From assembly GCA_951406725.2 (NCBI GenBank), contig OX597815.1, positions 61,070,001 through 61,134,000 on the forward strand: DNA of 64,000 bases, given 5' to 3'. This DNA comes from Octopus vulgaris. Lineage: Eukaryota. Both the position numbers and the translations under genes were made by a program. Positions 6,058-44,396 of this stretch are shown here, piece after piece. Positions within the stretch are counted from its first letter, which is position 1. Each line of letters starts with the position of its first letter. The notes beneath the pieces are model-generated. The model saw only the letters and a program-made list of their open reading frames with translations. It was not told where the DNA came from and made no database searches.

Positions 6058-6098
<41 letters not shown>

Positions 6099-6102
<4 letters not shown>

Positions 6103-6893
6103 AGAGGCTTCCAAATAGGAAAGCGTTGTACTAGAACACAAAAAAGGATAAATTCACGAAAGGAATGAAAATTACAAACATTTACCATCTCAACTATATC
6201 GCAGACCGACGGTTTCTAACTGTTTCCAGCAAAAAATATTTGCTGAAGGCAAGTTTCTTCAGTGGGACAGCCTTCATAATCCTGACGTACAGACTGCTAG
6301 ATCCACATGTAGATCTAACGGTTTGTAAATCCTAACTTTTCAAACCTCTGCGCAGACGCAAATTATTTCTATATGAATAATATATAGTCTAATGACTAAT
6401 TCGTTTTTTGTGCTAGGCCACTGGTAATAATAATTTATTATTACCCTATTTTATTATACTTAAATATTGTTTGATAAATTTGTTCGAAATTTTTACCGGC
6501 ATCCTCTCTGTCGTCGGGTATAATTTGCGTTTGCGCAGTGGTTTGAAAAGTTAGGATTTACAAACCGTTAGATCTACATGTGGATCTAGCAGTCTGTACG
6601 TTAGGATTATAAAGGATGTCCCATTAAAGAAACTTGCCTTCAGCAAATATTTTTTTGCTAGAAACAGTTAGAAACCGCCGGTCTGGGATATAGTTGAGAT
6701 GGTAAATGTTTTTAATTTTCATTCCTTTCATGAATTTATCCCCTTTTTGTGTTCTAGCACAACGCTTTCCTATTTGGAAGCCTCTTATTGCATTTCTATA
6801 TGAATAATATATAGTCTAATGACTAATTCGTTTTTTGTGCTAGGCCACTGGTAATAATAATTTATTATTACCCTATTTTATTATGTTTAAATA
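6099..6893. mobile_element. Inverted + partial tandem pLTR-like duplication carrying hammerhead motifs
   Basis: 6099-6347 is the reverse complement of ~6540-6790; ~6366-6465 is repeated directly at ~6794-6893; bounded by (TA)n. Hammerhead-like motifs at 6198-6268 (-) and 6618-6689 (+). Confidence 0.7.
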
Positions 6894-6903
6894 TATATAT
6901 ATA

Positions 6904-7889
6904 AATGGATGAAATCATTTGTTTACCGTTAACATGGAAGATTCAGTAAACAGTTACCAGGGTAGCAAAATTCACTAAACTAACACGGATGAAGCGACCT
7001 ATTCAAAGGAAGAAACTCCGGGTTAATGTGTAGTAATTTGTGTAGTATAAGTAAATAAATGGAGTTGAACGAAGATGTTATTAAAATTCTTTTACTTTCG
7101 ACATATGTTTCGAAGACAACATTGGTTTTATTCCAAAGGAATAAACGGTGTAGAATTCAATCTTCTCATCAGGAAAGAAAAAGAGCCTATCTCAACAACA
7201 AGACATTATAACAATTACGATGACTGCCTAAATGATAAACAGAACGTTATTAAGTATTTAAAAAATCGTTAGTAGATTTGACGTCAAAGGTAGATACTAG
7301 GAAGAGAAGGATTAAAGAAATAATAAGTAGAGAACTAATAAAGAGGGATACATTGGTCGAAAAAATGTTCAAAGTCTTAGAAGTAGATTTCTCTATTGAA
7401 GTAAGGTGCAAGTTAAACTAACTGTTCAAACTATAAAGTCTGCCGAAATCACTCATATGAGTTAAAGGTATGTTTCTGCCAGTGTTTACATTTGTAAGAT
7501 CGCTCTATATGTGTTAACAAGGTGATTCTTAGAGAAGAGAATATGGAAGAGTTCAGAGTTGCAGATGTTACAAAATCCCTTGGCCTTATCGTAAGGAAAA
7601 AATACGGACAGGATGAACCAATCTAACTTAAAATCTTTATTGCTGTCTTTAAGATGCGAAACCAATTTACTTAGCCCTGTGCTATGGCGTTTTTTGCTAT
7701 CCCTAAATGATGAATAATGATTTGAAATTCTCTTAGATAACTGGGAAGAGGATGCGCCTATGTAGAAGTAGACATTGGTACCGCAAGAAATTTTACATTG
7801 GTATATAGAATTCTTGATCTGAGAATTATTAGACATAAATTTAATTCTGTTGGGGTTGTCCTCAGAGATCAAAACCATGTTTTTATTGC
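6904..7889 (-). mobile_element. PLE 3' portion: GIY-YIG domain (stop at 7486), 3' UTR and hammerhead
   Basis: IYQCKISC...FYIGAS...RISNHYSSFR...STGLSK...CNICNSE; same type of domain as at 42373-42800. Confidence 0.8.
7095..7177 (-). ncRNA. Type I hammerhead ribozyme, intact core
   Basis: CTTTC-CTGATGA-GAAGA...TCTTC-GAAA-CATATG-TC^-GAAAG; stem III is the palindrome ACATATGT. Confidence 0.8.
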
Positions 7890-8669: not shown

Positions 8670-11600
8670 TTTTTTTTCTTCTTTCAAATTTTCTTCAATT
8701 TCTTGCCGAGTGTCTTCCCGACTCCTAGGGCAAAGAAACTCATAGTGTATATTGGTAGGCCATTAAACCAAACTCAGTAGTTCGTTCATCTTTTTTTTTT
8801 TTTTTAAAGTTAAATTAAAATACATGAGCAGCAACAGTTCTCACATCGACAATGCTCTTCTCAATACGTGTGATGTACCAGTTAAGACAATCTTTTGCAC
8901 TTCTTGCAGGGATGGTAAGCCAGGGATCATTCTCATATAATTTTCGGTTCCCTTCTTGATCATTCCTAGTGCTCCTACGATCACTGGTATTGTAACCGCC
9001 TTGAGATGCCACATTTTCTCAGTTTCAATGAGTAGGTCTTTATATTTTCTGAGCTTGTCAAACTCTTTCGCTGAGATATTATGATCACAGGGGATGCTCA
9101 TGTCGATCAATTAGCAAACTTTATTGTTTTCACAACAATATCTGGTTTATTGGCCTTGATGGTTCGGTCTGTATGTACTGGAAAGTCCCACAGAATGGTT
9201 ACATTTTCTCCTTCAGTTACAGCCTCAGGGTGGTGATTATACCACTTGTCGGCAGTTTTGATATTGTAATGCCGACTTATTAGCCAGTGGAGATATTGGC
9301 CAACTCTGTCATGTCTTAATTTATACTCCACTGGTGCTAAGACTTTACATCCAGAGATTAGGTGGTCCACTGTTTCAATCATGTCGTTGCAGAATCGGCA
9401 TTTTGGGTCTGCTCCATTTTTCATCACATTGGCCTGGTAGTTCCGGGTTAATAGGCTTTGGTCTTGAGCAGCCAGGATGAAACCTTCGCTCTCTGCTTTT
9501 AGCCCTGAGCTCCGCAGCCACTGATGGGTTTGCTTCTGGTCAACATCAGCTTGTTTGCTGCGGGTCACATATTTGCCGTGCAGAGGTTTCTCCTCCCACC
9601 TATCAGCCAATTGCTCGTGCGCTTTTTTCATTGCCATCATTTTCACCTTCTTTGCAACAATAGTTGCCGTACTTCCCTCGGGTTGTTCAGTTTGGGTATC
9701 CTGCACGAGATCAATAGCAAATTTTTTGCTTTCCTTGATGATAGAATGAAGCTTCTTTCGTCTCTCGTGATTTTCCACGAGCTTTAGCATCCAGTCATTC
9801 GATATTTCGAGATCTTTGGCCAGTCCAATTGTGGTTGTTTTGTAAGCTAGTTCAAATTGGATCAGGCCTCGACCTCCTTGGGCTCTGGGAAGGTAAAGGC
9901 GATCTACGTCTGCCTTTGGGTGGTGCATCCTATTACAACTCAGCAGCTTGCGTATTTTCCTATCTATATTCTTTACTTCACTCATATTCCAGTTCAACAC
10001 ATTGTAGCTATTAGTAACAACTGGAACTGCTAAGGAATTTATAGCTAACACCTTGTTACGTGCATTTAGTTCAGATTTCAGGACTGCACGAACTCTCCTA
10101 TAACATTCCTTCCTGATCTTCTCTTTCATGCTTGCATGCTGAATACCAGAGCCTTCATTTATCCCTAAATATTTGTATGTTTGTTCTTGCTCAAGCTCTC
10201 TTATGACTGTGTCAATATCTAACACGACTGAATTTGTGGTCTTCACTTTCCCTTTCTGGAAAGTGGCCTTGGCACACTTCTCAAGTCCAAACTCCATCCC
10301 GATGTCATCGCTGAATGCTTTCACGGTGCGCAATAGGCCTTCAAGTTCATTATTGTCTTTACCATAAAGTTTTAAGTCATCCATATAAAATAGATGGCTT
10401 ATTTTTTTATTGGCAATTTTATACCCATACCCTGTTCTGTTTAATTCACTTGTAAGGGGTATTAGGGCTATGCAGAATATTAAAGGTGAAAGTGAGTCAC
10501 CTTGAAAAATTCCACAGTTGATGTTTATATTTTCTGAGGCAAGTACTCCATTAGAGTGGTATAATTGGAGATTCGTATTCCACAACGACATATTGTGCTT
10601 CAGGAAGTTTGAAATCACAGGGGAAATTTTGAAGATGTCCAGCGATCTCAAGATCCATGGATGCGGTATACTGTCGAAGGCCTTTTTATAGTCAATCCAT
10701 GCGGTGCTGAGATTTCTGCGCTTGTTGTGACAGTTCTCAAGGATCATACGATTGATTAGCAGTTGATCTTTGCATCCGTAAGAGCCTCGGCGGCACCCTT
10801 TTTGTTCAATGGGGAAAATATCGTTCTTCTCCATGAATGCATATGTTTTCTCCGCCAGGATAGATGTTAGGATTTTATATGTGGTGGATAGACAGGTTAT
10901 AGGCCGATAGTTTTTTGGAAGGTTGGTTTCGTTATTCTTTGGGAGTAGGTAAGTAATGCCACTTGCTAACCATTCAGGTGTTTTCTTTGGGTCTCTCATA
11001 ATTCCATTGAGCAGCTGAACTAGCTTACCGTGTGCGCACGGAAGCGATGCGAGCCAGAAATTCGGCACCCTATCTTTACCGGGGGATTTCCAATTATGGG
11101 CCTTCGTGAGTGCCTTTCTTAGGTCTGCTATTGTGATGTCTTCCCATGCTTGTTGTAAATTTTGGTAGGATCCTTCAGTTTGTATAATCCAGTCTGCATT
11201 TATGTTGTACGTCTTCTTGTCACTCCAAATCCTTTTCCAAAAGTTTTGAACTTCTTCCATGGGAGGGGGTCTTTAACGGTTACTTTCTCCTTCCCTATTT
11301 CTCTGTAGAATTTTTTGGCATTGGATGTGAACAGCTTATTTTGCTTGTAAAACTTGTTTCTCTTCTCAAATCTTCGTATTCTTTGGGCTTTTGCTTGGAC
11401 TTTTTGTTTCAGCGTTTCTTTTATTGATATCAGTTCTTCTCTTGGTGAGGATCCAAATTTTCTCTTCATCTTTCTTCCTGTTCTGGATCTTACATCATTT
11501 CCACATATTAGTTCATTTAATATTGATATTTCCCCTCTCATAAATTCAATCTCTTTTTCAATTTTACTTCTCCAGGTTTGATTTCTTCCCAGGTTTTGTT

Positions 11601-12930
11601 TTCTTTGTTTTTTCGGGGGCATACAGCTGGTTTCAATTGCCCTAGCAGAAGCGTAAATAATTTCATTTAACTCAGTAAAATCAGGTTTTAATTCTCGTAT
11701 TATTTCATTTGTTACATAGTTGCCAATTTGGATTTGTTTTTTATTTTGGTTTGTATTTGAGAGTTTATGAAGCGGTTCTCTATCATTCATACTTGTATGT
11801 CTTACAACTTCAAGCGTATTCAGGATTTTCTGCCTCATTTCTGCCATAGACTCTCTGTGTTCTTCAGCAAATGCGAGATCTTCAGTTACTGTTGTTTTTT
11901 CGTTTTCCTGGCTATCTTTAACAGGTACAATAGAATTTCTTGTATCTTCAGGCCTTTGCGTACTTTGGTCAGATGGCAGTCTTTCAATTAAGCCTCGTGG
12001 CGGGCTATACTGTTCATCTGATTCTTCATTTCCTTTGTGTCTTATATTTATGTCATTTTCCGTTGCGTGCTTGATCGCGCTTATTTCACTGTCTGTGAGT
12101 CTGTTATTTCTAAAGATATCCCTCCTCACATTTGCTAATTTGTTCTCGTCCAAATAGGGCCTACTGTCTTGATTCCGTGTTCTCCATATACTGTAAGAGT
12201 TTGCGGTGTGTCTCTCTTGAGATGGCCTACCTAATGCATAGTAATAAGCGTACATTACTTCTTTATACTCTTCTCGGGTCCATTTGTTCCGCTTACATTT
12301 TTCTTTCTGTGGTGGTTGTGGTGGTGAACTTGGAGGGCTCGAGTTGCGGGATTTCCCGTTCAAGTGACCATCCATGTCCGTATTCGGAGAAGAGTTTGTG
12401 CCAGTTGATGACTTTTCGATCCCAGGCTGGCTCTTCCCTGGGGGACGCGCTTCCAGATTAACCATAGGACAAGCGATTTGGTATACTGATTTAGTTTTCC
12501 TTTTAGTTTCCAAAAACATTTTGGTGCTACGATAATGTTATCATTTTTTAGCTTTGATTGGCTCGTGGGGAGACGGCCATCATTGCCGTTACAATTATAA
12601 TCGTACCATTATAGCAGCCGTAGTCGGCTTATTATTGTTATTATCATCACCATTACCATCACTATCATCATTATCACCACCATTACCATCATCATTATCA
12701 TCATCACCATCACCATCACCACCATCATCATCGATGATATTGTTTTATGTGTAGTCACAGCAGTATCTTATTGTTATTTTTGTTATTTTATCATTATCAC
12801 CATCACAGTAGTGTCTGTCTGTCTCGTTGGCTGGCTTGGTGGTTGGCTGGCTGACTGTCTTTTTTTTTTTTTTTTTCTTTAGGTGCGGTCCTATTATTTA
12901 GGTGCGGTCCTATTCTTTAGGTGCGGTCCT
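8669..12930 (-). mobile_element. R4/Dong-clade non-LTR retrotransposon (RT + CCHC + restriction-like endonuclease), near full length
   Basis: Domain order RT-CCHC-RLE and both ends in (TAA)n, the known target of Dong elements. Confidence 0.9.
8841..12519 (-). pseudogene. Dong polyprotein split by two frameshifts (~11260, ~9115)
   Basis: KSPGKD, YRPITCL, DYKKAFDS, GIFQGDSLSP, HLFYMDDLKL; CRFC-x8-H-x4-C; RHD; KPDIVV...IDMSIP...KLRKY. Confidence 0.9.
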
Positions 12931-13297
<367 letters not shown>

Positions 13298-13512
13298 TCC
13301 GACACGACGGACGTACGTGAATCAGCTCTATGAGTTTTGTGCCAATTTTATTGGAAATTTGTTAATAAGTTTTAATATTTTTGAATATTTTTGTAGCCAA
13401 ACCGACCAGCCTCTTGCGGAGCTCGTCGGTTAGGCGAAATTTTGCCCCTTCGGGGTGAAATTGCTGTTTATTACATTGAAATTGACATTTTTTGCACAAA
13501 CACATTTACAAA

Positions 13513-15345
13513 ATGGCTTTAAAACGAGCTGCTGGCTCTTCCCTCCTTGCAACAACACCCCCTCCACAAGAAGAAAAAATTGCGTCACAGGTTACGAACA
13601 ACCCATTTCAAGCCGTAAAAGGCAACAGAGCTCCTCCTTCAGAAACGGAAAGCACGCGCGCCGTTCGAAAGGAGAATGCTAGCCAGGACGTCGCGTTCGA
13701 CGTCACTCCTGATTTCCCCCCTCTGCCTTCAACTAATGTTATAGTACCGAAGGGTGAGGAAGGGAATAATATGAATAAAAGTCATATAAACAAAGAATCA
13801 AAAATTGAAGAAAATTCAAAAGGCTTTGCTTCAGCTGCGAAGCAAATTTCGGAGGAAGTAGAAATTACGATGGAGGATCTAAAAATGGCAAAAGATTTGT
13901 TGAGAAAGGAGGGAAACAGTGTTTTCCTCAACACACCTCAACAACTCATACAAGAGACCAATAAAAGAACAATTTTTTATAAAGTTTTCGAAAAGAAAAC
14001 AAAAAGATTGTTTAACGCCACACCCCAACAGTTAGAAATAGCTCTGAAGCCCATTTGGGGCCAAAAGAGCTATGTGACAAGAGGGAAGCGATTTGGAACC
14101 GTGGAGGTTCGCTTCCCAACCGAGGAGCAAGCAAGGGCGCATGCCATTTCGCCCTTGCAAAATGAACATTTGTTCCTCGTTCCCATGTACCTCGGGCGTA
14201 AGGTACAAAAAATAACAATCAACACAATACCCCCCGAACAGAAAATCTCATGGCTAGTGGCGGCTATCCTCTATGGCATAGAGGACACTGCCACTATTCT
14301 AAATGTTCAGAGGGTACGAGAAAAGAACTGGTCAGGTATGGGTATTGAACTGCTGGTACAGATCCAGCAGGAAAACATCAATGCCATACCTGACTTTGTC
14401 ATCTTATTAGATGGGACCAGGCTAAATGTTACTGTAGAGGGGCGAAAGCCAAAATGTTTCCTCTGCATTAGCGAAAGCCACCTGAAAAGGGACTGCCCCA
14501 TTCAAAAAAAGAGAATGGAGGAGTACAGCAAGAGGCAGCAACAACAACAACAACAACAACAACAGAAACAACAACAACAGAAACAACAGAAACAGCACGA
14601 AGCACCAAAGGCCGCCACACCACCAACAGCATCACCAGCACCAAGACGAACAATACCACCTCCAACAACAACAACCACCACCAAACCAACACCGACACCA
14701 GTACCTCGAAGGTCGACAGCAGCAACATCAACAGCAACAGGAGCCGCGGCACCACCGATACCGGCGGAACCAAGAACCTTTCGTCCTGGTACTGAAGCAG
14801 ACCCATCAACCATTCCTTTGCTGGATGAAGAGTCGGATTGTGCGAGCTCTGATTCCAACAAAGGAGAATGGAGCACAGTGCCTCCAAAAAAGAAAAGGAG
14901 GAAAAAACAAAAAGATATACAGGGGAAGCACGAACAAATAGTGCTTCCAAACATCAACAACAACATCAACGACAACACACATTCACAACAACAAACAACA
15001 ACAACACTTTCGACACCACTACTGCCACTGCCACTGCCACAGACACAAACAAACACAGACGCACTTACAGCAATAAATACAAAAAACCAAGAACTGGTTG
15101 AGTATTTGAAAAACTCAACCAGTACAAGTATAACAGATTTTGTTATACCAACAAAAAACACACCACCAGCACACATTCTGACAATAAAAATAAACAAAAC
15201 AATATACAACGAAATTAAACAAATATTCCCTAACGATGTGGGATTGTTAGGGAAAAGTTTCTCTCAGAAACTGTACAAAAATATCGTGGAAGAACCCGTG
15301 CAAAAGCACAAGGGAGCCACCCCCACCACCAACAACAGTAAGTAG
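13513..15345 (+). CDS. ORF1 gag-like nucleic-acid-binding protein with CCHC zinc knuckle and Q/T/P-rich tail
   Basis: Open ~610 aa from ATG 13513; CFLCISESHLKRDC; position upstream of an APE-RT ORF. Confidence 0.8.
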   Translation: MALKRAAGSSLLATTPPPQEEKIASQVTNNPFQAVKGNRAPPSETESTRAVRKENASQDVAFDVTPDFPPLPSTNVIVPKGEEGNNMNKSHINKESKIEENSKGFASAAKQISEEVEITMEDLKMAKDLLRKEGNSVFLNTPQQLIQETNKRTIFYKVFEKKTKRLFNATPQQLEIALKPIWGQKSYVTRGKRFGTVEVRFPTEEQARAHAISPLQNEHLFLVPMYLGRKVQKITINTIPPEQKISWLVAAILYGIEDTATILNVQRVREKNWSGMGIELLVQIQQENINAIPDFVILLDGTRLNVTVEGRKPKCFLCISESHLKRDCPIQKKRMEEYSKRQQQQQQQQQQKQQQQKQQKQHEAPKAATPPTASPAPRRTIPPPTTTTTTKPTPTPVPRRSTAATSTATGAAAPPIPAEPRTFRPGTEADPSTIPLLDEESDCASSDSNKGEWSTVPPKKKRRKKQKDIQGKHEQIVLPNINNNINDNTHSQQQTTTTLSTPLLPLPLPQTQTNTDALTAINTKNQELVEYLKNSTSTSITDFVIPTKNTPPAHILTIKINKTIYNEIKQIFPNDVGLLGKSFSQKLYKNIVEEPVQKHKGATPTTNNSK

Positions 15346-15383
15346 AGCCTTTTTTCTCCTTTTTTTTCCCCTACTTTTGAAAC

Positions 15384-18300
15384 ATGGCAAATCTTAGAAT
15401 CGGTTGCTTGAATGTGAGAGGCCTCGGGTCACCTTGGAAACAGGGTCACCTGTTAAACGACCTGAGGTTTCATGATGTGGATGTAGCAGCCATCAGTGAA
15501 ACCAGGCTCTCCGACCCGCAGGAACTCGCAGCCCTTTTCGGCGGATACGAGATATTTCTATCTCCGTGTCGGCCGGGAGCGGGCAGTGGTGGTACTGCGG
15601 TGTTGTTTCGGAAGGGCCTGGACCTGAAAATAAGGACAGTCTTCTTGGATCCGGAAGGTAAGTTGGTGGTCCTCGACGTGGACGGTAGTGACGGCGGTGG
15701 TGCTTTCAGACTGCTGGCTGCCTACGCTCCGACAGGAGCAGGGCAGTCGGATTATTTCAAACGTCTGGAAGTTTTCCTGGGAACGTCACGCACTCTAGTG
15801 CTAGTTGGGGATTGGAACGCTGTCTTAGACGAACGTTTCGATCGGGTGGGCAGGGGAGCGTCTGATAGGAGAGGGGGAGGGTGCAAGAGCCTCGCCAACC
15901 TACTCGGCCGCTTTCAGCTGTCCGACAGGTTTCGACTAGACAACCCGAATGTGCCAATGTGGACTTGGACAAACCGCATCGGGTCGTCTAGATCGTACTT
16001 AGATAGAGTGTTTTGTAGGCCAGCGGATAAGGACAGCGTAGGGTGTCCACAATTCCACCTAGTCGAATATACAGACCACAAATTAGTGATCTGTACGGTC
16101 GACTTAGATAGGCTACATAGACAGGGACCCGGCTACTGGAAGCTGAACGCGTCGTTAACGGCGTGCAAAGCTTACAGAGACCGGATTAGTTTACTAGTTA
16201 AGCGGGCGCTCACGGGGGCAATCATCAACAACAACTGGTGGTTTGCCCTCAAGAGAGCAATTAGAGTAGAGTCGATTAGGTATAGTAAGACTCTAGCTAT
16301 TGAACGTAGGAAGAGAGAGCGGGATTTAGTTAAGAAACTAGACGAGGCTCTTGACACTGGCATCGCGACCGACGTGTTGGCGGCAAGGTTGGCCCTCGAC
16401 CAACACTTCGACGCCAAACACGAAGGTTGCGTTGTCAGAGCTAAGGCACGTTCGCTAAGCGGGGAGGGGACTAGAGCCGCTCGATGGGCCCGCATGGCGG
16501 AGGCGAAGCGAGGCAACAGAGCAACCATTCGGTCTTTGGTGGACCAGAACGGGCGCGAGGTTACCGAACCGAAGCAGATGTGTACGGTGCTTCAGCGGCA
16601 CTTTGCTCAACTGTTTGGGACGAGCGGTGGAACGGACAACGGTGCAGACTTCGGTGTGTACCTGGACGGCCTACCGCAACTCTCGGACAGCGAGGCAGAG
16701 TGCTGCGAAGGTCCGATATCTGCCTGGGAAGTACAGGAAGCGATGAAGAGTTGCACGAGAGGTAGATCGCCGGGTTTGGATGGTCTGCCCTACGAGCTTT
16801 ACTTTCAATGCCAGACTTGTTTGCGGACCTGTTGGCAAACGTCTACTGCAACTGGCAGCAAAACGGGAGAATTCCTGCTTTTGTCTGTCGAGGGGTGGTG
16901 GCTTTGCTAAAGAAGGACCCAAACAAGGGGGACGTTATAGGGAATTTCCGGCCCATCACTCTGCTCAATGCAGAGTTGAAGATTTTGGCCAAGGTGCTAG
17001 CCAAGAGATTGGCGCTTGTCGTGGACAAGCTGGTCGGCAAGACGCAGACATGCGCCGTGCCGACCAGGTCAATACACGACAACCTCCATCTCATGCGCTA
17101 CATCATAGAGAGGGTGGGTAACGACGCTGGCGCGGGTGGGGCTTTGATCAACTTGGATCAGAGTAAAGCCTTCGATAGGGTCGACCATCGGTACCTGGCA
17201 GCTGTCCTCAAGGCAGCCGGCTTCGGTCCAGTCTTCCTGCGGGTGGATAGCTGCTTTATACAGCAACATCTGCTCGGTGATACGGGTGAACGGTCACCTT
17301 TCGGAACCGTTCGACATCTCGCGTTCGGTCCGCCAAGGATGCCCTCTCTCCTCCCTCTTGTACATTTTGACTCTCGAGCCATTACTGCGCAAGTTGGAGG
17401 CTTTGAGGGGTATCCCGCGCGATCTAGGAGGCGGAAACAGCGTGTCTGCTTATGCCGACGACGTCACCGTGGTGGTGTCGAGCCACAGGCACATTGGCCT
17501 GATTGGCGAGACGCTAAACCAGTACGAAGCGGTGACAGGGGCAAAGATTAACGCGGAAAAGTCTGTGGGCTTGCAACTGGGCACCTGGAGAGGCAAGCCC
17601 ATGCCGTCCAACAGCGTCGTAGGGCGCTGGACAGACGGACCCGTTAAACTGCTCGGGGTCTGGTTCGGTCCGGACCTCCAGGTGGATAAGAACTGGGAAG
17701 AGGTGACGAGCAGGGTGGCACGTCTCACCCAGAAATGGGCCGAGAGGAAGCTGTCCCTGAAAGGTCGAGCGGAGGTGGCGAATGCGTACATCGCATCCGT
17801 CATCTATTACCGCTTGACCGTCGTCCCTTGTCCCGACCGCTGGTTGGCCAAGCTGGTACGCCTGCTCTTCGACTTTTTGTGGAAGGGTCAGGTGCCACTG
17901 GTCAGGCGATCCATCTGCTGTCAACGACCGCTGAACGGAGGCCTTGGAATGCCGTGGTTGCTGTTGCGCAGACATGCGCTCAGGCTGCGGCATCTCAAGC
18001 GCTTCCTAGACGGTGAACAGGTGTGGTCGTCTTTTGTCAGACGCGATTTTCCGCAGCTCGTCTCTTTGACGGAGCTGCAGACCTGGATCAAACGTAGACC
18101 GAGAAAGGGCGCTTGGCACCTCGAGTGCCGTCAAGCCCTCTCCGCCCTCCGCCAGGCGGGCAATGCGATCGGTTACAGCTCCACTCTAGCGTTCTATAGA
18201 GGGTTAGTGGAGGAAAAATGCGACGACGTTCTCGGGGAAACTCTAGGCGTTGAAGATGACGAACTGAGCAGTCTGTTCGGGAGGACTTTCGGGCCGGGGC

Positions 18301-18818
18301 CGATGGATAATTTCCAGAGGTCTCTCGCCTGGCAGTGCTACCGAGGGGCTCTGCCTGTTCGAGATAAACTCTACCGGCACGGAAGTGCCGTCAGCCGGGC
18401 CTGCCCGAGGTGTTGCCAGGACGACGAAACCGTTCTGCACGCACTCGTCCAGTGCCCGAGTATTGCTGAAATATGGGTTTATGTCGAACAGCTACTGTCA
18501 CGTGTAGGACGGATCCGACTATCGGCCGAATCCATAGTGAAGATTGCCCCGCCGACCTCCTTTAACAAGGAGGGCGAGGCCGTTTTCTTGTGCCTAGTGG
18601 CTGTGGCGAAAGAGGTCGTGTGGTGGACTCGTTTGAAAGGGCTAAAGACAGACACTTTCCTCTTTGGTCAAGGCCTCATCAACTTTTTCAAGTTTCACTT
18701 GAAAAGGAAGATGAGGTTAGAGAGGAAAGTGCTGTCCGATAGCAAGTTTTATGAAAGGTGGGTGAATTGTGCGAGACTGGCCTGTATAAATGGACCAGTT
18801 CTCAGGTTTCGCCTGTGA
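15384..18818 (+). pseudogene. ORF2 APE endonuclease + reverse transcriptase + zinc knuckle; two frameshifts (~16805, ~17240)
   Basis: LNVRGL, SET, GDWN, YLDR, TDH, YWKLN (APE); SPGLDG, FRPITLLN, DQSKAFDRV, RQGCPLS, AYADD (RT); CPRC-x8-H-x4-C. Confidence 0.9.
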
Positions 18819-22483: not shown

Positions 22484-23715
22484 CGAGGGACGTTCAATAA
22501 GTAATGCCTCTGACCTACTTGCAATTGTTTGATCTAGCTGAAATTTTGCATGTGCAATTGCTTATATGTCTATAGATTACGGGGAACTAATTACAGCTCT
22601 GAACTAATTGTGGTTTCGGATTTACAGGTGTTTGAACTGAGTCAAGTGTGAAATGGAGCCTGTTGAGTGTCGAGCAGTGATACGGTTTTTATATTTGAAA
22701 GGACGCACACCACGGGAGACTTTTGATGAAATGAAAGTAACTTATGGTGATGATGCCCCATCATATGACCTTGTAAAACGCTGGCGTCGCGAATTCAAAC
22801 ATGGTCGGAACTCTGTGGAAACAGCTCCCAGATCTGTTCGCCCCCTTCTTCCATTGATGAGGCATCTGTCCGTCAAGTTGAGGCTGCCATTTTGGAAGAT
22901 CGACGCATAACTATTCGCCAAATAGCCCATGAGGTCAAGATTAGTACCGGGTCTGTGGAAACTATCATTCATGACAATTTGCATATGCAAAAGGTGTCTG
23001 CCAGATGGATTCCCAGGCTGCTCAAATCTTTCCAGAAGCAAGAATGCGTCGAGCGCTCGAGGATGAATTTGGAGATATGCCAAGAAGATGAGTCAAATTT
23101 TTTCAAAAGACTGATTACACAGGATGAAACCTGGGTCCATCACTATGATCCAGAGACCAAAGCCCAGTCAATGCAGTGGAAGCACCGTGACTCACCTCCT
23201 CCAAAGAAGGCAAGGGTGCAGCGCTCCGCTGGCAAGGCCACGCTCACAGTCTTCTGGGACCAGGACGGAGTAGTGATGACAGATTTCCTGGCAAAGGGCA
23301 CCACAATTATAGGAGCCTATTATGCTTCACTTTTGAGGAAATTAAGAGAAGCTATCAAAATCAACTCGCTGTCGCCAGATCAGAAGCATAGGCGTGCGGC
23401 TATGAACTCCTCCCCCATCTCCCTATTCTCCTGACCTTGCACCCTCAGATTTTCACCTCTTCCAAGCCATGAAGTTGTTTTTGAAAGGAAAGTGTTTTCC
23501 AAATGATGCAGCCTTGATTTCTGAAGTCACGTCGTGGTTGGAGGACCAAGCTGGGGTCTTCTACAAAAATGGTCTCCAGAGCTGCATCACACGATGAGAG
23601 AAATGCGTTACTCTGGGTGGTTCCTAGGTAGAAAAAGACTAATAACTGTGCCAAGTTTTGTTGCTCTACTGCTATGGGAAGTGGGTCAGGGGCATTACTT
23701 ATTGAACGCCCCTCG
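22484..23715 (+). mobile_element. mariner transposon, defective
   Basis: TIRs CGAGGG(A/G)CGTTCAATAAGTAATGCC with TA duplication; transposase from 22653 with WIPRLL, ITQDETW and YSPDLAPSD-like motifs; frameshift, deletion and stops. Confidence 0.92.
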
Positions 23716-32835: not shown

Positions 32836-33162
32836 TCAATTCAAACTAGATCTTTACCTTGGGGACATAAACACACCAACACCTGTTGTTAAGCGGTAGT
32901 GGTGGTGGTGGTGGTGGGGCACAGAAACAAAGACACACACACACACATGGATATATATAGTTACCATGATTGACCGCTAAATTCACAAGTTTTTTTTTCT
33001 CTCTGTTTATTTCCTCGTGTTCCTTTCTGTTAAAAAGTGTAGGCTCGAAACGTAAAAAACTTTCTCACCTTCCCGAGCGTCAAACTAATACACCTGCTTG
33101 ATGCTTACACACCTATTTTCGTCTTTTGTTTTTTCTGTAAATTTCAACTATATATATATATA

Positions 33163-33860
33163 CTAGCAGTATCGCCCAGCGTTGCTCGGGTTTGTAAGGG
33201 AAATAACTATATAAGCATTTTTAGAGAGTTATAGCCAAAAAATAGCAAAAAAATGTATTAAAAATGGAAAAAAAATGATGGTAATTTTTTTTTAATCGTT
33301 GACTCATCGTAGACATTTTTAGAGAGTTACTTCCCTTATATAATAGCGAAAAGATGCATTAAAATGGAAAAAAATTATGGTAAATTTTTTCTTTATCGTA
33401 GACTCATCGTAGACGCGCGCTAATACCCAGAATGGCTCGATATGAATCACGACTATAAGATACCCGGTTTTGGTTAAACTGCACCGCAAAATGTGGGAGT
33501 AGTTAGGAATCTAAATCGTAGGAGACAGACACACAACTTCACTTTTATATATAAAGACTAGCAGTATCGCCCGGCGTTGCTCGGGTTTGTAAGGGAAATA
33601 ACTATATAAGCATTTTTAGAGAGTTACTTCCATTATATAATAACAAAAAAATGCATTAAAAATGGGGAAAAATGATGGTAAACTCTTTTTAAAATTGTAG
33701 ACTCCTTATAGACACGCGCTAATACCCAGAAGGGCTCGATGTGAATCACGACTATAAGATACCCGCTTTTGGTTAAACTGCACCGCAAAATGTGGGAGTA
33801 GTTAGGAATCTAAATCGTAGGAGACAGACACTCACACAACTTCACTTTTATATATAAAGA
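33163..33860 (-). mobile_element. Head-to-tail dimer of non-autonomous Helitrons (33558-33860 and 33163-33557)
   Basis: Each unit starts 5'-TCTTTATATATAAAAG and ends CCCGAGCAACGC(C/T)GGGCGATACTGCTAG; junction CTAG|TC; inserted at A|T with no duplication. Confidence 0.85.
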
Positions 33861-34440: not shown

Positions 34441-34759
34441 TGGCTGTTGACACACACATACATGTATTCCTAGCATACATACATACGTACATAAATACAT
34501 GCATGCCTACATGTACACATACATATGCATGCATGCATGCATACATACATACATACATACATACATGTGGGGGGTGTATGTGCATATATATATATATATT
34601 GAGGGCATTACAAAATAAATATAAGAGAGTGGTCACTATATTGATCACTCTAGCACCAGTTAATCCAAAAGGTTTCAACCACGAAAATACATGTTTCCCA
34701 TGAAAGCCAGTACGACTGTTAGCTCACACGGACAGGGCAAATAAAAAATAACAAAAATA

Positions 34760-34853
34760 CAGATTATTTTGGGACAATTGTTTCGCTATTAATGAATTAA
34801 ATGTAATATTACTTACAATAATCCATTTGTAGCTCGTCAGCCAAGACTATCTG
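34760..34853 (-). ncRNA. Type I hammerhead ribozyme, array copy 1
   Basis: Reverse complement of 36801-36894. Confidence 0.85.
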
Positions 34854-35292
34854 GATGAAATCCACTCAATCACACGCCAGATTTTACCATAACGATAAAT
34901 ACGCGTGTGGTTCAATTGATTACATCCGACGTTATAATTCAAATGCCCCAACCAACAGCGCGCCAAACTCTCACGGAAAACAAATACAGCAATTAGAAAT
35001 AAATGCAGCATAATTATAATTAATTAATAAGGGTGAGAGAATTAGATACTAATTTAATAGTATATTTATTCCACACCAAGTGGCCTAGTGCTACGAGAAA
35101 CCTGGATTATTATAATATTTTATAACATATTATAATATTTTCACAAAATAAATATAAGAGAGTGGTCACTATATTGATCACTCTAGCACCAGTTAATCCA
35201 AAAGGTTTCAACCACGAAAATACATGTTTCCCATGAAAGCCAGTACGACTGTTAGCTCACACGGACAGGGCAAATAAAAAATAACAAAAATA

Positions 35293-35386
35293 CAGATTAT
35301 TTTGGGACAATTGTTTCGCTATTAATGAATTAAATGTAATATTACTTACAATAATCCATTTGTAGCTCGTCAGCCAAGACTATCTG
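35293..35386 (-). ncRNA. Type I hammerhead ribozyme, array copy 2
   Basis: Same sequence 533 bp downstream of copy 1. Confidence 0.85.
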
Positions 35387-35825
35387 GATGAAATCCACTC
35401 AATCACACGCCAGATTTTACCATAACGATAAATACGCGTGTGGTTCAATTGATTACATCCGACGTTATAATTCAAATGCCCCAACCAACAGCGCGCCAAA
35501 CTCTCACGGAAAACAAATACAGCAATTAGAAATAAATGCAGCATAATTATAATTAATTAATAAGGGTGAGAGAATTAGATACTAATTTAATAGTATATTT
35601 ATTCCACACCAAGTGGCCTAGTGCTACGAGAAACCTGGATTATTATAATATTTTATAACATATTATAATATTTTCACAAAATAAATATAAGAGAGTGGTC
35701 ACTATATTGATCACTCTAGCACCAGTTAATCCAAAAGGTTTCAACCACGAAAATACATGTTTCTCATGAAAGCCAGTACGACTGTTAGCTCACACGGACA
35801 GGGCAAATAAAAAATAACAAAAATA

Positions 35826-35919
35826 CAGATTATTTTGGGACAATTGTTTCGCTATTAATGAATTAAATGTAATATTACTTACAATAATCCATTTGTAGCT
35901 CGTCAGCCAAGACTATCTG
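35826..35919 (-). ncRNA. Type I hammerhead ribozyme, array copy 3
   Basis: Same sequence 533 bp downstream of copy 2. Confidence 0.85.
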
Positions 35920-36800
35920 GATGAAATCCACTCAATCACACGCCAGATTTTACCATAACGATAAATACGCGTGTGGTTCAATTGATTACATCCGACGTTA
36001 TAATTCAAATGCCCCAACCAACAGCGCGCCAAACTCTCACGGAAAACAAATACAGCAATTAGAAATAAATGCAGCATAATTATAATTAATTAATAAGGGT
36101 GAGAGAATTAGATACTAATTTAATAGTATATTTATTCCACACCAAGTGGCCTAGTGCTACGAGAAACCTGGATTATTATAATATTTTATAACATATTATA
36201 ATATTTTCACAAAATAAATATAAGAGAGTGGTCACTATATTGATCACTCTAGCACCAGTTAATCCAAAAGGTTTCAACCACGAAAATACATGTTTCCCAT
36301 GAAAGCCAGTACGACTGTTAGCTCACACGGACAGGGCAAATAAAAATAACAAAAATACAGATTATTTTGGGACAATTGTTTCGCTATTAATGAATTAAAT
36401 GTAAGTCGTACTGGCTTTCATGGGAAACATGTATTTTCGTGGTTGAAACCTTTTGGATTAACTGGTGCTAGAGTGATCAATATAGTGACCACTCTCTTAT
36501 ATTTATTTTGTGAAAATATTATAATATGTTATAAAATATTATAATAATCCAGGTTTCTCGTAGCACTAGGCCACTTGGTGTGGAATAAATATACTATTAA
36601 ATTAGTATCTAATTCTCTCACCCTTATTAATTAATTATAATTATGCTGCATTTATTTCTAATTGCTGTATTTGTTTTCCGTGAGAGTTTGGCGCGCTGTT
36701 GGTTGGGGCATTTGAATTATAACGTCGGATGTAATCAATTGAACCACACGCGTATTTATCGTTATGGTAAAATCTGGCGTGTGATTGAGTGGATTTCATC

Positions 36801-36894
36801 CAGATAGTCTTGGCTGACGAGCTACAAATGGATTATTGTAAGTAATATTACATTTAATTCATTAATAGCGAAACAATTGTCCCAAAATAATCTG
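36801..36894 (+). ncRNA. Type I hammerhead ribozyme, inverted array copy
   Basis: CAGATagtcTTGG-CTGACGA(36814-20)-GCTA...TAGC-GAAA(36870-73)-CAATTG-TC^(36881)-CCAAaataATCTG. Confidence 0.88.
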
Positions 36895-37974
36895 TATTTT
36901 TGTTATTTTTTATTTGCCCTGTCCGTGTGAGCTAACAGTCGTACTGGCTTTCATGGGAAACATGTATTTTCGTGGTTGAAACCTTTGGATTAACTGGTGC
37001 TAGAGTGATCAATATAGTGACCACTCTCTTATATTTATTTTGTGAAAATATTATAATATGTTATAAAATGTTATAATAATCCAGGTTTCTCGTAGCACTA
37101 GGCCACTTGGTGTGGAATAAATATACTATTAAATTAGTATCTAATTCTCTCACCCTTATTAATTAATTATTGAGGGCATTACTATACATAAATGTCACAC
37201 GCTAGGAGGGACTCTTAAAGTCAAAACTACCAAAATAATTAAACACATTGTACAGAATACGAGGGAATGCAACTCTCGAAGCGAGCATTTTAAAAACACA
37301 ATTCAGCTGCATATCATGAGTTGCATTTGCAATGAATATTTCCCAGTATTTAACAGCATTCCCCAATATGTTCAACTCCCATATAACATATCTACAAACA
37401 TACTTTGGAGTACTAGAATATAAAGATGTACTTCATGAGGACACAGCTTGGCTTATAACCCTATCTACATACTATGTCTGTGTGATTGTGTATGTGTGTG
37501 TTTGTGTGTGTATATGTGTGTGTGTGTGTGCATGTGTGTGTGTGTGTGTGTGTGTGCGTCCAAATCTTACGGAGGCCTCGAAAGGTATTTTAAGATCCAC
37601 AAAGATCAGGATAGTGCTGCTCATGGTGGTCTAAAGCAGATGTTATTTATGTTGGTGTCTTTTCAATACATTGTCTGGTTCAAAAAGCCACATCAGACGC
37701 CATGATATGTATGTATGAATAATGCAATGGGAATCAAACAGAAATTGGAAAATTTACTTTTGAAGCGTCTAACAGTTTACACAGAAACAATATGCAAATA
37801 TTCCAGATCAATGTGCAAGATGCAAAATATTAAACTGGTCAGTTTTGGCGGTCCATATAAAGACGAACAGACGTATAATGATCTTAGGCATCTTGTAAAT
37901 CCATTGAAGTATCAATGGTACTGCCATAGTAACAAATCTAAAGCACACACAGTGAAACCGCTTGGTACAGATTG

Positions 37975-39907: not shown

Positions 39908-39946
<39 letters not shown>

Positions 39947-40126
39947 TACAAAATTAGAGAATGGAGAAACATACTTAAATCAATAAAACATCAACTATCC
40001 GATGATACCCAATCAATACTTTAATACACCATTACATATGAGTAGAGGCATTATACAAAAAGAGATATACATTAATAGTAAAAAGATAAAGAGATATAAG
40101 TAAAAAATTTCAAATATAATATGCAA

Positions 40127-40250
40127 TTAATCAAAACTGACAGCTGTTTCGGCAGTGAGGGCAGTCATACCTCATTTAACCTATAAGCCATAAAGGCAGG
40201 TATAAATGAGGCATTAACAATGGTGCCCCACGGCCTCTTCAGAGAATTAA
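40127..40250 (-). ncRNA. Type I hammerhead ribozyme with very long stem II
   Basis: TTAATTCT-CTGAAGA-GGC...GCC-GAAA-CAGCTG-TC^-AGttttGATTAA; stem III palindrome ACAGCTGT. Confidence 0.75.
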
Positions 40251-40599
40251 ATTAAATTTGTTATAATTGTGAAAAATATTATATACTCATATACATATAA
40301 ATATAAAAATATAAAAATGTAAAATATAAAAACTTATACATCATAATGCTACACTTATATAATATAATACACATTGGTACAATAAAGGAAGGTAAACAGA
40401 ACAAAATAAAACAAAATATATATCAGTGTATATATTAATATTAATAAGTACCGATATTATACATATTTGGCTAATATTTTTTTTTTTTTTTTTTTATAAA
40501 AAGAACCTAACACATAGGGAGATGAAAAATAATAATTAAAACCATGGTTCAGTTCATAAAATTCTAAAGCTATAAAAGTTAATAAAAATTACTATTAAT

Positions 40600-40678
<79 letters not shown>

Positions 40679-42372
40679 GATACAGTTAAGTTTGCACAAA
40701 GTCCATCCTTTCAAGAACGAAATAACTATGAGTTTAGAAATGCTGACCACTAGGTAAAGAAAATTTAGATTAATTCGATTGGCTATTGGTTTGAAATTTA
40801 AATCACAAAAGAAAATTATACGGTTGGTTAGTCAAGGAACGCCAATATTCACACACGCATCTACAGATCTATCGCACATACACACATAGTTATATGTATA
40901 TACATACACTTATACGCATACATAATCACAAGCAACAACTAGCACATAGATAAACAAAAAGGGAAGCAACTATGCTACCATTTAGTCCTACAAAATTATA
41001 ACTGTGCCTCAAATACCGAAAAAGAACCATCCATGCCTTTCATAAAATATTTAATTTAGATATAAATATATTTTTAAATATCAGTATGTTACTAAGTCAG
41101 ATAATTATTCCATGGGTAACTTAAAATTTATAACACCGGTTTGTTGCATAGTAAACATACGGTTGTTATATTTATCGTAAGTTTGTTATGATTCCAAGTA
41201 CGCTAAAATATAAAATAAAAAATATAAAATATATATTAATTTATATATTATAAATAAATCACATATTTACTTAATAAATTTAATGCCATAATATACCAGT
41301 TTAGGTATTAAAAAATAGAAGGGGAAGTACTAATGTAAACGCTTATGAGAACATCACAGAAATTTTTAAAAATTTATATTATAAATACTTAAGATAAAAT
41401 GCGATAAAATAAATAAGAAGGAATAAACACGAAGGAATAAATACGGTTATACACATATTATAAGTACAAACCAGTATATATGTATACATATATTATTAAA
41501 ATTTAAATAAAAATAAATGATAGATATGTATGTATAAAACTACCCTAGTATAAGTAAATAAGTAAAAAATAAATAGATAACAAATTAGATGACTTGATAT
41601 ATATGTAAACATCCACACTTAGATAGGCAAATAAATAAATAATTAGAAGACTAAATGCAGAGATTGGTAACATTACAATAAAATAAAAAATAAATAAAGT
41701 GAATATATATGTTATATTGTTGAAGGTAAATATGTATGGAAGGATAATTTAAAGTACAGATCCAGAGGACTATAGATATAAACTAAATATATAAGGCTGG
41801 TAATATTTATAAAGCCAAATGTATGTAAATGAAAAAATGAAAAAAATGAAAAAAATGAAAAAGGTTTATTAGTAAATAGCATAAGATACAAATTAAGGTG
41901 AGTACAAAGAAAGACCAAATATACAATAAAAACCTTCCAAATAAACACATACAAAAAACCTATATTCTCAACCTAAACACACCAAACTCATAAAAGGCTC
42001 TCCTATATTACATATTATACAATAACATTACACTATCTAGAGCTAGGTATCTAACCAAGATATACATATATACTATGCAATATACTATGCAATATTAGAA
42101 AACTTCAAAAATCACATATTACAAGGCAAATACCAAAATGAATATGTTATTTCCTGTCATATTGCATTTCCCTTAAAAAACAAACAAAAACCCACATACA
42201 AAAACAAGAAACAAATAATACTAGACACATCTATTATTATTATACAAATGTAGCTATAAAAATTATAAAATTATAAATTTATAAGTTGTATACTATAGAG
42301 TTATAGAAGACCACAGGTATAGTTAGTTAAAGAAGGGAGTTATAAAATTAATAATAGTGGAAGTGCTAGGTT

Positions 42373-44396
<2,024 letters not shown>

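What the first reader, a model, noticed from the sequence alone, without database searches (positions are those of the whole stretch)
36801..36894. Unusual ribozyme architecture: long stem II plus palindromic stem III, predicting dimeric cleavage
Seen: stem II is extended as GCTA ca AATGGATTA t TGTAA gtaata TTACA tt TAATTCATT aa TAGC; stem III is only the palindrome ACAATTGT; stem I has a 4x4 internal loop. Known: PLE and newt-satellite type hammerheads with weak palindromic stem III cleave best as dimers. Inference: cleavage may need two adjacent units, so only tandem transcripts would be processed.
Basis: partly seen in the sequence, partly recalled or inferred. Interest (0 to 1): 0.7.

Follow-up and report, generated by a model that had tools for sequence, protein, structure and literature searches.

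The report
Long-armed hammerhead retrozyme, two-armed insertion
This is a hammerhead ribozyme motif inside a 533-base protein-free jumping repeat of a known kind (retrozyme); its long side arm and palindrome are the usual design in this genome, it likely cuts best in pairs, and its back-to-back copies were likely made from one RNA circle.

Summary
The motif is real: a type I hammerhead (core 36814-36820, predicted cut after 36881) with an 18-bp stem II and an 8-nt palindromic stem III. It is one of four copies in a 2.56-kb insertion of 533-bp units, two arms head-to-head, with a 15-bp target duplication; one pattern finds 2,225 family copies genome-wide. Stem II covaries. The '4x4 loop' is really a 6-bp stem I with one mismatch. 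The design is not unusual here: long-stem-II motifs outnumber short ones about ten to one, and a palindromic stem III is the published animal norm. Dimer cleavage is likely, since the palindrome's centre covaries and cannot pair in a hairpin, but it is untested and similar invertebrate hammerheads cleave as monomers. More informative: 23 of 23 classifiable two-armed loci end once at +160 and once at +290, and a variant unique to this locus sits in all four units on both arms. This points to a Penelope-like enzyme copying one circular RNA from both target strands. The parent element was not found. The scan noted the same two-armed kind before on other DNA. Verdict: new member of a known kind.

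The parts
36801..36894 (+). Type I hammerhead of the finding: stem I 5' strand 36801-36813, core CUGACGA 36814-36820, stem II 36821-36869, GAA 36870-36872, palindrome 36873-36880, C17 36881, stem I 3' strand 36882-36894 (U1.7 = 36888)
36821..36869 (+). Extended stem II (4 bp, CA/AA internal loop, 9 bp, 1x2 loop, 5 bp, hexaloop); base and first internal loop conserved, distal part variable in length and sequence
   Evidence: pair probabilities above 0.9; covariation; variants
36873..36880 (+). 8-nt palindromic stem III; predicted 8-bp helix between two units, at most 2 bp plus tetraloop in a monomer
35826..35919 (-). Identical hammerhead, first on the minus arm (core starts 35906)
35293..35386 (-). 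Identical hammerhead, second on the minus arm (core starts 35373)
34760..34853 (-). Identical hammerhead, third on the minus arm (core starts 34840)
34610..36404 (-). Left arm: 3.37 tandem 533-bp units; outer 3' end at about +161 to +163 from the predicted cut, 5' end at +500
36404..37170 (+). Right arm: 1.44 units, head-to-head with the left arm; 5' end at +56, outer 3' end at about +287 to +290
34597..34611 (+). Left copy of the 15-bp target-site duplication (last 2 nt shared with the unit)
37168..37182 (+). Right copy of the 15-bp target-site duplication (first 3 nt shared with the unit)
36662..36662 (+). Locus-private variant at unit position 314, also at 34992, 35525 and 36058 on the minus arm; found nowhere else in the genome
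   Evidence: 4 hits, all here, against 1,208 for the common allele

Best explanation
The motif is a type I hammerhead in a young 533-bp non-coding tandem repeat family (non-LTR retrozyme) that likely cuts its own transcripts mainly as a double hammerhead, likely yields a closed RNA circle, and is likely copied back into the genome by a Penelope-like element's enzymes. Shown by sequence: intact core, covarying stems I-III, tandem units, dispersed near-identical copies, TA-repeat targets, head-to-head arms, two fixed 3' ends, a target duplication. Inferred steps: (1) a read-through transcript of two or more units pairs its palindromes into an 8-bp stem III and cuts at both GUC sites; (2) the CA/AA internal loop above the 4-bp base of stem II replaces the usual loop 2 and docks on U1.7, the distal rod being an accessory; (3) the 533-nt monomer is ligated, and its weak monomer stem III keeps the circle from re-cutting; (4) a dimeric Penelope-like RT/endonuclease, probably of the TA-targeting Hydra clade, nicks both target strands, primes one at about +160 and the other at about +290 of the same template, copies round it a variable number of times, and the two 5' ends are joined.
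For: Family: 249 matches from 40 scored of 831 candidates; of the 150 rows listed most are 99-100% identical; 2,225 pattern hits, control 0; longest ATG ORF 54 aa. Structure: 23 variants, 91.6% of cells paired, 12 of 31 pairs changed on both sides, slid controls 30-42%. Palindrome: centre AATT in 20 and TCGA in 3 of 23; by eye 64 of the first 100 rows and 80 of the first 100 have an exactly palindromic central tetramer (chance about 1 in 16 to 1 in 12), 12 of the 16 possible kinds in all. Model: monomer stem III probability about 0; tandem dimer-active ensemble -193.3 versus -185.3 kcal/mol for two monomer-active folds. Insertions: of 39 loci 27 have both strands and 12 one; 23 of 23 that the script could class pair a +160 end with a +290 end (p 1.2e-7), 14 of them with both arms over one unit. 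The ~490-bp subfamily at about 75% identity keeps both ends. One template: variant 314 has 4 hits genome-wide, all here, both arms; 7 variants private among the 39 loci are fixed across both arms in 6 loci; opposite arms differ by 0.64 substitutions per unit, different loci by 2.03; 0 of 62 5' ends lie at the cut. Literature: PLE enzyme nicks and extends both strands, starts internally at two sites that define the tail, predicted dimer (PMC11167929); inverted 5'-truncated copy and one-sided tail are PLE traits (PMC8557442).
Against: No cleavage, RNA or circle was observed. Invertebrate hammerheads with 2-bp helix III cleave as monomers (coral 0.8/min, mussel 0.1/min, PMC7229834), so dimer dependence may be partial. 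Only 1 of 9 Xenopus retrozyme dimers cleaved in vitro (bioRxiv 2026.07.22.740005), and the Anolis PLE ribozyme needed protein and was dispensable for insertion in vitro (PMC11167929). The lowest-energy fold here is inactive: the core GACGA pairs with UUGUC (-24.8 versus -19.2), and the dimer-active state is 5 kcal/mol above the free ensemble. One search also found 3 partly shared and 41 single-unit private variants, and L059 carries one variant in 3 of 6 units, which a single circle does not explain without later change. Only variant 314 was checked genome-wide; a uniform donor array absent from this assembly could give the same pattern. The Hydra-type PLE tested shares no detectable sequence with the unit. 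Stem IIa is nearly invariant, so it gives no covariation; the covariation test does not correct for relatedness.
Confidence: 0.7

Rival explanations
1. Same element, but the ribozyme works well as a monomer: tertiary docking and the long stem II, or a bound protein, stabilise the 2-bp stem III, and the palindrome only adds an optional dimer route.
For: PMC7761336 passage: most invertebrate type I hammerheads cleave efficiently as monomers; coral and mussel monomer clones cleave. U1.7 and the last A of the internal loop are conserved; the energy model ignores such contacts.
Against: The innermost palindrome pair cannot form in a hairpin yet stays complementary across 12 palindrome kinds; monomer stem III costs 1 kcal/mol rather than gaining.
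Confidence: 0.3
2. Copies come from linear, uncut multi-unit transcripts of uniform donor arrays (twin priming as for PLE tandems), with no circle; the ribozyme is slow or merely inherited.
For: Partly shared variants in L035, L044, L059, L061, L067; unprocessed RNA was the main substrate in vitro for the Anolis PLE; inactive lowest-energy fold.
Against: A genome-unique variant fixed in all four units on both arms needs a one-unit bottleneck at some step; arms reach 8-11 units; the 5' end of one arm does not meet the priming site of the other as in twin priming on one linear RNA; stems keep covarying, implying selection on the fold.
Confidence: 0.2
3. The arrays grew as DNA satellites after insertion of a single PLE end-piece (unequal exchange, gene conversion), as proposed in bioRxiv 2026.07.22.740005.
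For: Local homogenisation could fix private variants; a few neighbouring units share variants.
Against: Every array has the same two precise outer ends and random 5' ends, on many chromosomes, at under 0.5% divergence; both inverted arms share the variants; the window copy has an intact target duplication.
Confidence: 0.07

Closest known systems
Metazoan non-LTR retrozymes (Cervera and de la Pena 2020, PMC7229834, parts 2-4 of 6 read, supplement unreadable; Li et al. bioRxiv 10.64898/2026.07.22.740005, parts 1-3 of 5 read)
   Same: Non-coding tandem units, one type I hammerhead each, GC below 50%, TSD longer than 4 bp, highly self-paired predicted circle (z -7.4), co-occurring PLEs.
   Different: Unit 533 bp (170-400 nt in the 2020 paper, within 51-972 bp of the preprint); stem II 18 bp with internal loops instead of 4 bp plus loop; head-to-head arms with two fixed ends are not described in the parts read; RNA not shown here.
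Penelope-like elements, pLTR/tail architecture; Hydra clade (PMC8557442 passages; PMC11167929 parts 1-2 of 4)
   Same: Partial tandems, inverted 5'-truncated copy, tail at one end only, TA-repeat targets, hammerhead upstream of the 3' ends.
   Different: No ORF; tail about 130 bp rather than 30-40; both arms are often several units long; no sequence link to an autonomous family was found.
Dimer-active animal hammerheads (newt/axolotl, PLE minimal hammerheads; PMC4209133 parts 1-2 of 4, PMC6765202 passages; Lunse et al. 2017 not held, known only through that review)
   Same: Short palindromic helix III predicted to pair between two units.
   Different: Here 2 bp plus tetraloop (8-nt palindrome), like axolotl Amex2 and invertebrate types rather than the 1-bp newt type or the minimal type; full stem I with U1.7.
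CChMVd(-) and Schistosoma hammerheads (PMC2632901, PMC11875169 passages)
   Same: CChMVd(-) uses an internal loop in an extended stem II for docking; Schistosoma uses an internal loop 1 with U1.7 and a loop 2 that starts with C and ends with A.
   Different: Here both partners would be internal loops; the contact is inferred from conservation only.

Membership tests
Hammerhead ribozyme, type I | Conserved core CUGANGA, GAAA, UH around three helices, helix I open | tested here: met
   core invariant in 23 variants except N7 and H17
Hammerhead ribozyme, type I | Helices supported by covariation | tested here: met
   helix I 8 of 12 pairs, lower stem II 2 of 10, palindrome 2 of 4 change on both sides; distal hairpin 0 of 5
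Hammerhead ribozyme, type I | Match to an Rfam hammerhead model | tested here: not met
   no match at gathering score or at E up to 10; the 49-nt stem II is my inferred cause
Hammerhead ribozyme, type I | Self-cleavage | not testable with these tools
   no assay; 5' ends of genomic copies not enriched at the cut
Non-LTR retrozyme | Tandem units each with a complete type I hammerhead | tested here: met
Non-LTR retrozyme | Non-coding | tested here: met
   longest ATG ORF 54 aa
Non-LTR retrozyme | No LTR, PBS or PPT | not tested
   no LTR-flanked layout; PBS and PPT were not searched
Non-LTR retrozyme | Dispersed mobile copies, TSD longer than 4 bp when visible | tested here: met
   15-bp TSD here; elsewhere mostly hidden in TA repeats
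Non-LTR retrozyme | Expressed as linear and circular monomer RNA | not testable with these tools
   only assembled contigs of runs not on record as RNA were available
Autonomous Penelope-like element | RT plus GIY-YIG ORF | tested here: not met
   it is not an autonomous PLE
PLE-mobilised derivative | Inverted 5'-truncated arm, one-sided tail, microsatellite target | tested here: met
PLE-mobilised derivative | Sequence homology to the pLTR of an autonomous PLE | tested here: inconclusive
   one family tested, no similarity (score 55, shuffles mean 49, max 70); other PLE families not surveyed
Obligate dimer hammerhead | Negligible monomer cleavage, rescued by a second unit | not testable with these tools
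   indirect only:

The most novel reading that the evidence does not exclude
Each insertion is the fossil of one event in which a dimeric Penelope-like enzyme primes both strands of a DNA break on a single circular RNA, always at two different fixed sites, and copies round it in both arms. This would be direct genomic evidence for the long-proposed circular template of retrozymes and would explain the one-sided PLE tail and inverted copy, with the palindromic stem III acting as a switch that cuts multimers but spares the circle.
Probability: 0.5. Interest if true: 0.65.

Novelty: new member of a known kind. Interest (0 to 1): 0.4.

Why it matters
The ribozyme shape alone is a modest extension: a lineage-wide long stem II that Rfam misses here, so such motifs (at least several thousand in this genome) are probably under-annotated. 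The family matters more as a clean test system. The circular template of retrozymes and the origin of PLE tandem/inverted structure are still models; this young family gives dozens of near-identical insertions with fixed priming sites and locus-private markers, and intact-looking Hydra-type PLE ORFs exist in the same genome for reconstitution.

Tried and rejected
Rfam: nothing relevant. Expression: no RNA holder listed. Runs guessed to be RNA have contigs over the unit; run X3 has one 563-nt contig (533+30), which fits a circle or a tandem equally; none of this is used as evidence. Parent search: the neighbouring PLE family has its own hammerhead and no similarity to the unit; PLE fragments near arrays in L067 and L115 lie downstream of the arrays, the wrong side for a parent; one search found only a sister repeat family. 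A hammerhead in L084 resembling this stem II turned out to lie in a flanking repeat, not in that PLE's pLTR. Apparent 3' ends at +177 and +193 were alignment run-on into TA repeats. An apparent excess of 5' ends at the cut was an artefact of my numbering: 0 of 62 at the cut, 3 of 62 within about 15 nt, p 0.38 (L049 and L053 left out). One search had an off-by-one error in stem II; only its circle z-score is used, energies come. Pfam and PDB searches did not name the PLE protein; the clade rests on motifs. I first called that PLE Neptune-like in notes and changed to Hydra. Literature searches: octopus + hammerhead ribozyme, 5 papers, none on this by listing; extended stem II + Penelope + mollusc, 0; searches listed nothing showing two-armed retrozymes or single-circle evidence. 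Lunse 2017 was not held and the PMC7229834 supplement, which shows further retrozyme folds, could not be read; both may bear on how new the long stem II is.

Full report
Observation. The stretch 36801-36894 is a type I hammerhead: CUGACGA at 36814-36820, stem II at 36821-36869, GAA, the palindrome ACAAUUGU at 36873-36880 and C17 at 36881. The 4x4 loop in stem I is not the best reading: the middle two positions pair in the model, and the C-A apposition is U-A or C-G in 18 of 23 variants, giving a 6-bp helix followed by U1.7. Rfam does not detect the motif.

The element. The motif is one of four identical copies in a 2.56-kb insertion: 3.37 units of 533 bp on the minus strand (34610-36404) and 1.44 on the plus strand (36404-37170), reading outward from the junction, bounded by a 15-bp duplication at 34597-34611 and 37168-37182. 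The unit has no ORF over 54 aa. The 2.8-Gb genome holds 2,225 exact hits to a family pattern, control 0, in subfamilies from 99% down to about 72% identity, the older ones about 490 bp. This meets the sequence definition of a non-LTR retrozyme (PMC7229834; bioRxiv 2026.07.22.740005). The taxon looks octopus-like by inference only.

Is the architecture unusual? Not in this genome. Motifs with 24-54 nt between the stem II base pair number 865 plus 6,608, besides most of the 2,225 above; those with 4-23 nt number 944. Controls were 32, 10 and 36. The long forms fall into many unrelated families, most folding as imperfect hairpins, and a Hydra-type PLE carries an 85-nt version. A short palindromic helix III is described as the norm for animal type I hammerheads (PMC4209133). 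I found no paper on the long stem II in these animals, but could not see one key paper and one supplement.

Covariation. I aligned 23 of 60 distinct variants, chosen to span subfamilies. 91.6% of cells pair, 12 of 31 pairs change on both sides, and slid controls give 30-42%; three pairs of stem IIb next to alignment gaps were left out. The 4-bp base of stem II and the flanking C and A of the first internal loop are nearly invariant, while the distal rod shrinks to 34-39 nt in relatives. With U1.7 conserved, I infer that this internal loop stands in for loop 2 and that the rod is accessory; CChMVd(-) is a precedent (PMC2632901).

Dimer question. The innermost pair of an 8-nt palindrome cannot form in a hairpin, yet it stays complementary: AATT versus TCGA within the family, and by eye 64 of the first 100 rows and 80 of the first 100 are exact palindromes, with a further 14 and 18 compatible through G-U. 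Twelve of the 16 possible centres occur. These rows count copies, not independent families. In the energy model monomer stem III has probability near 0, and the double hammerhead is 8 kcal/mol better than two monomer folds in a genomic tandem, though still 5 above the free ensemble, whose best fold is inactive. Against strict dependence, coral and mussel monomers cleave, and axolotl Amex2, with the same 2 bp plus tetraloop, cleaves 22% in an hour alone and better as a dimer. Dimer-favoured is likely; dimer-only is unproven.

Insertion anatomy. Among the window and 38 other young loci (from the 40 best-scored candidates), 27 have both strands and 12 one. All 23 head-to-head loci that the script could class pair an end at +158 to +163 with one at +285 to +291; L049 does too but is interrupted, and L047, L053 and L064 were not classed; none showed the same class twice. 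About 60 of 66 outer ends abut TA-type repeats by eye. 5' ends are scattered and none of 62 is at the cut. Junctions mostly overlap by 1-4 nt. These are the PLE traits of an inverted truncated copy and a one-sided tail (PMC8557442), and they fit the finding that a PLE enzyme extends both target strands from two internal RNA sites (PMC11167929).

One template. A substitution at unit position 314 occurs 4 times in the genome, all in this insertion and on both arms, against 1,208 for the common allele. Six other variants private among the 39 loci are likewise fixed across both arms in five more loci; 3 are partly shared and 41 are single. Arms of one locus are as alike as units within an arm (0.64 versus 0.58 substitutions) and closer than different loci (2.03). 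The simplest reading is rolling-circle copying of one monomer circle from both nicks. A uniform donor array missing from this assembly, or later conversion, cannot be excluded.

What is missing. No cleavage, transcript or circle was observed, and the autonomous partner was not identified.

Verdict. A real, probably active hammerhead in a new family of a known element class. The title claim is partly ordinary (palindrome), partly lineage-typical (long stem II) and partly wrong (4x4 loop). The scan has recorded the two-armed kind before on other DNA, after I had reached this reading; I treat those notes as leads only. The genome-unique marker on both arms is the added evidence here. Interest 0.4.

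Noticed in passing
window 39943-44138, minus; intact-looking relative L084: 5'-truncated Penelope-like element starting at a TA run. The L084 relative has a 960-aa open frame with RWR, DKT, CxCx5C linker and CxxC/CxH motifs that match the Hydra clade description (PMC8557442). Its pLTR hammerhead (window 40139-40242) has an 85-nt stem II and an AGCT-centred palindrome; copies end about 200 or 380 nt past the cut. 150 of 19,309 candidates scored, 92-100% identical.
   Followed up: partly
window 7100-7172 and 7513-7815, minus: Second long-stem-II hammerhead (ATAT-centred palindrome) downstream of another PLE endonuclease remnant; its family dominates the listed rows of the 6,608 hits, where the centre varies ATAT / ATGT / ACGT.
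   Followed up: partly
window 6074-6895: Head-to-head repeat fragment sharing a short motif with unit positions 215-230; alignment score 52 against shuffles 33 +/- 5 (max 52), borderline. Possibly a shared enzyme-binding signal.
   Followed up: partly
G000, e.g. C1:180105947-180107390: A canonical short-stem retrozyme family with 353-bp spacing, 4-bp stem II, UCAAUA loop and TCGA-centred palindrome, also partly head-to-head.
   Followed up: no
G000, rows: One family has a CGAG centre, which in a dimer would give tandem G-A pairs instead of Watson-Crick pairs.
   Followed up: no
window 36817-36821 with 36877-36881: With N7 = C, as in the youngest subfamily, the core can pair with the 3' half of the palindrome into an inactive fold; older subfamilies mostly have A or G there.
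   Followed up: partly
window 9107-12537, 13486-18818, 22769-23434, 33140-33860: RTE-like and L1/Tx1-like LINE frames, a mariner-like transposase fragment (labels from recall of the motifs), and an unrelated duplicated repeat; no host gene was evident among ORFs of 220 aa or more.
   Followed up: no
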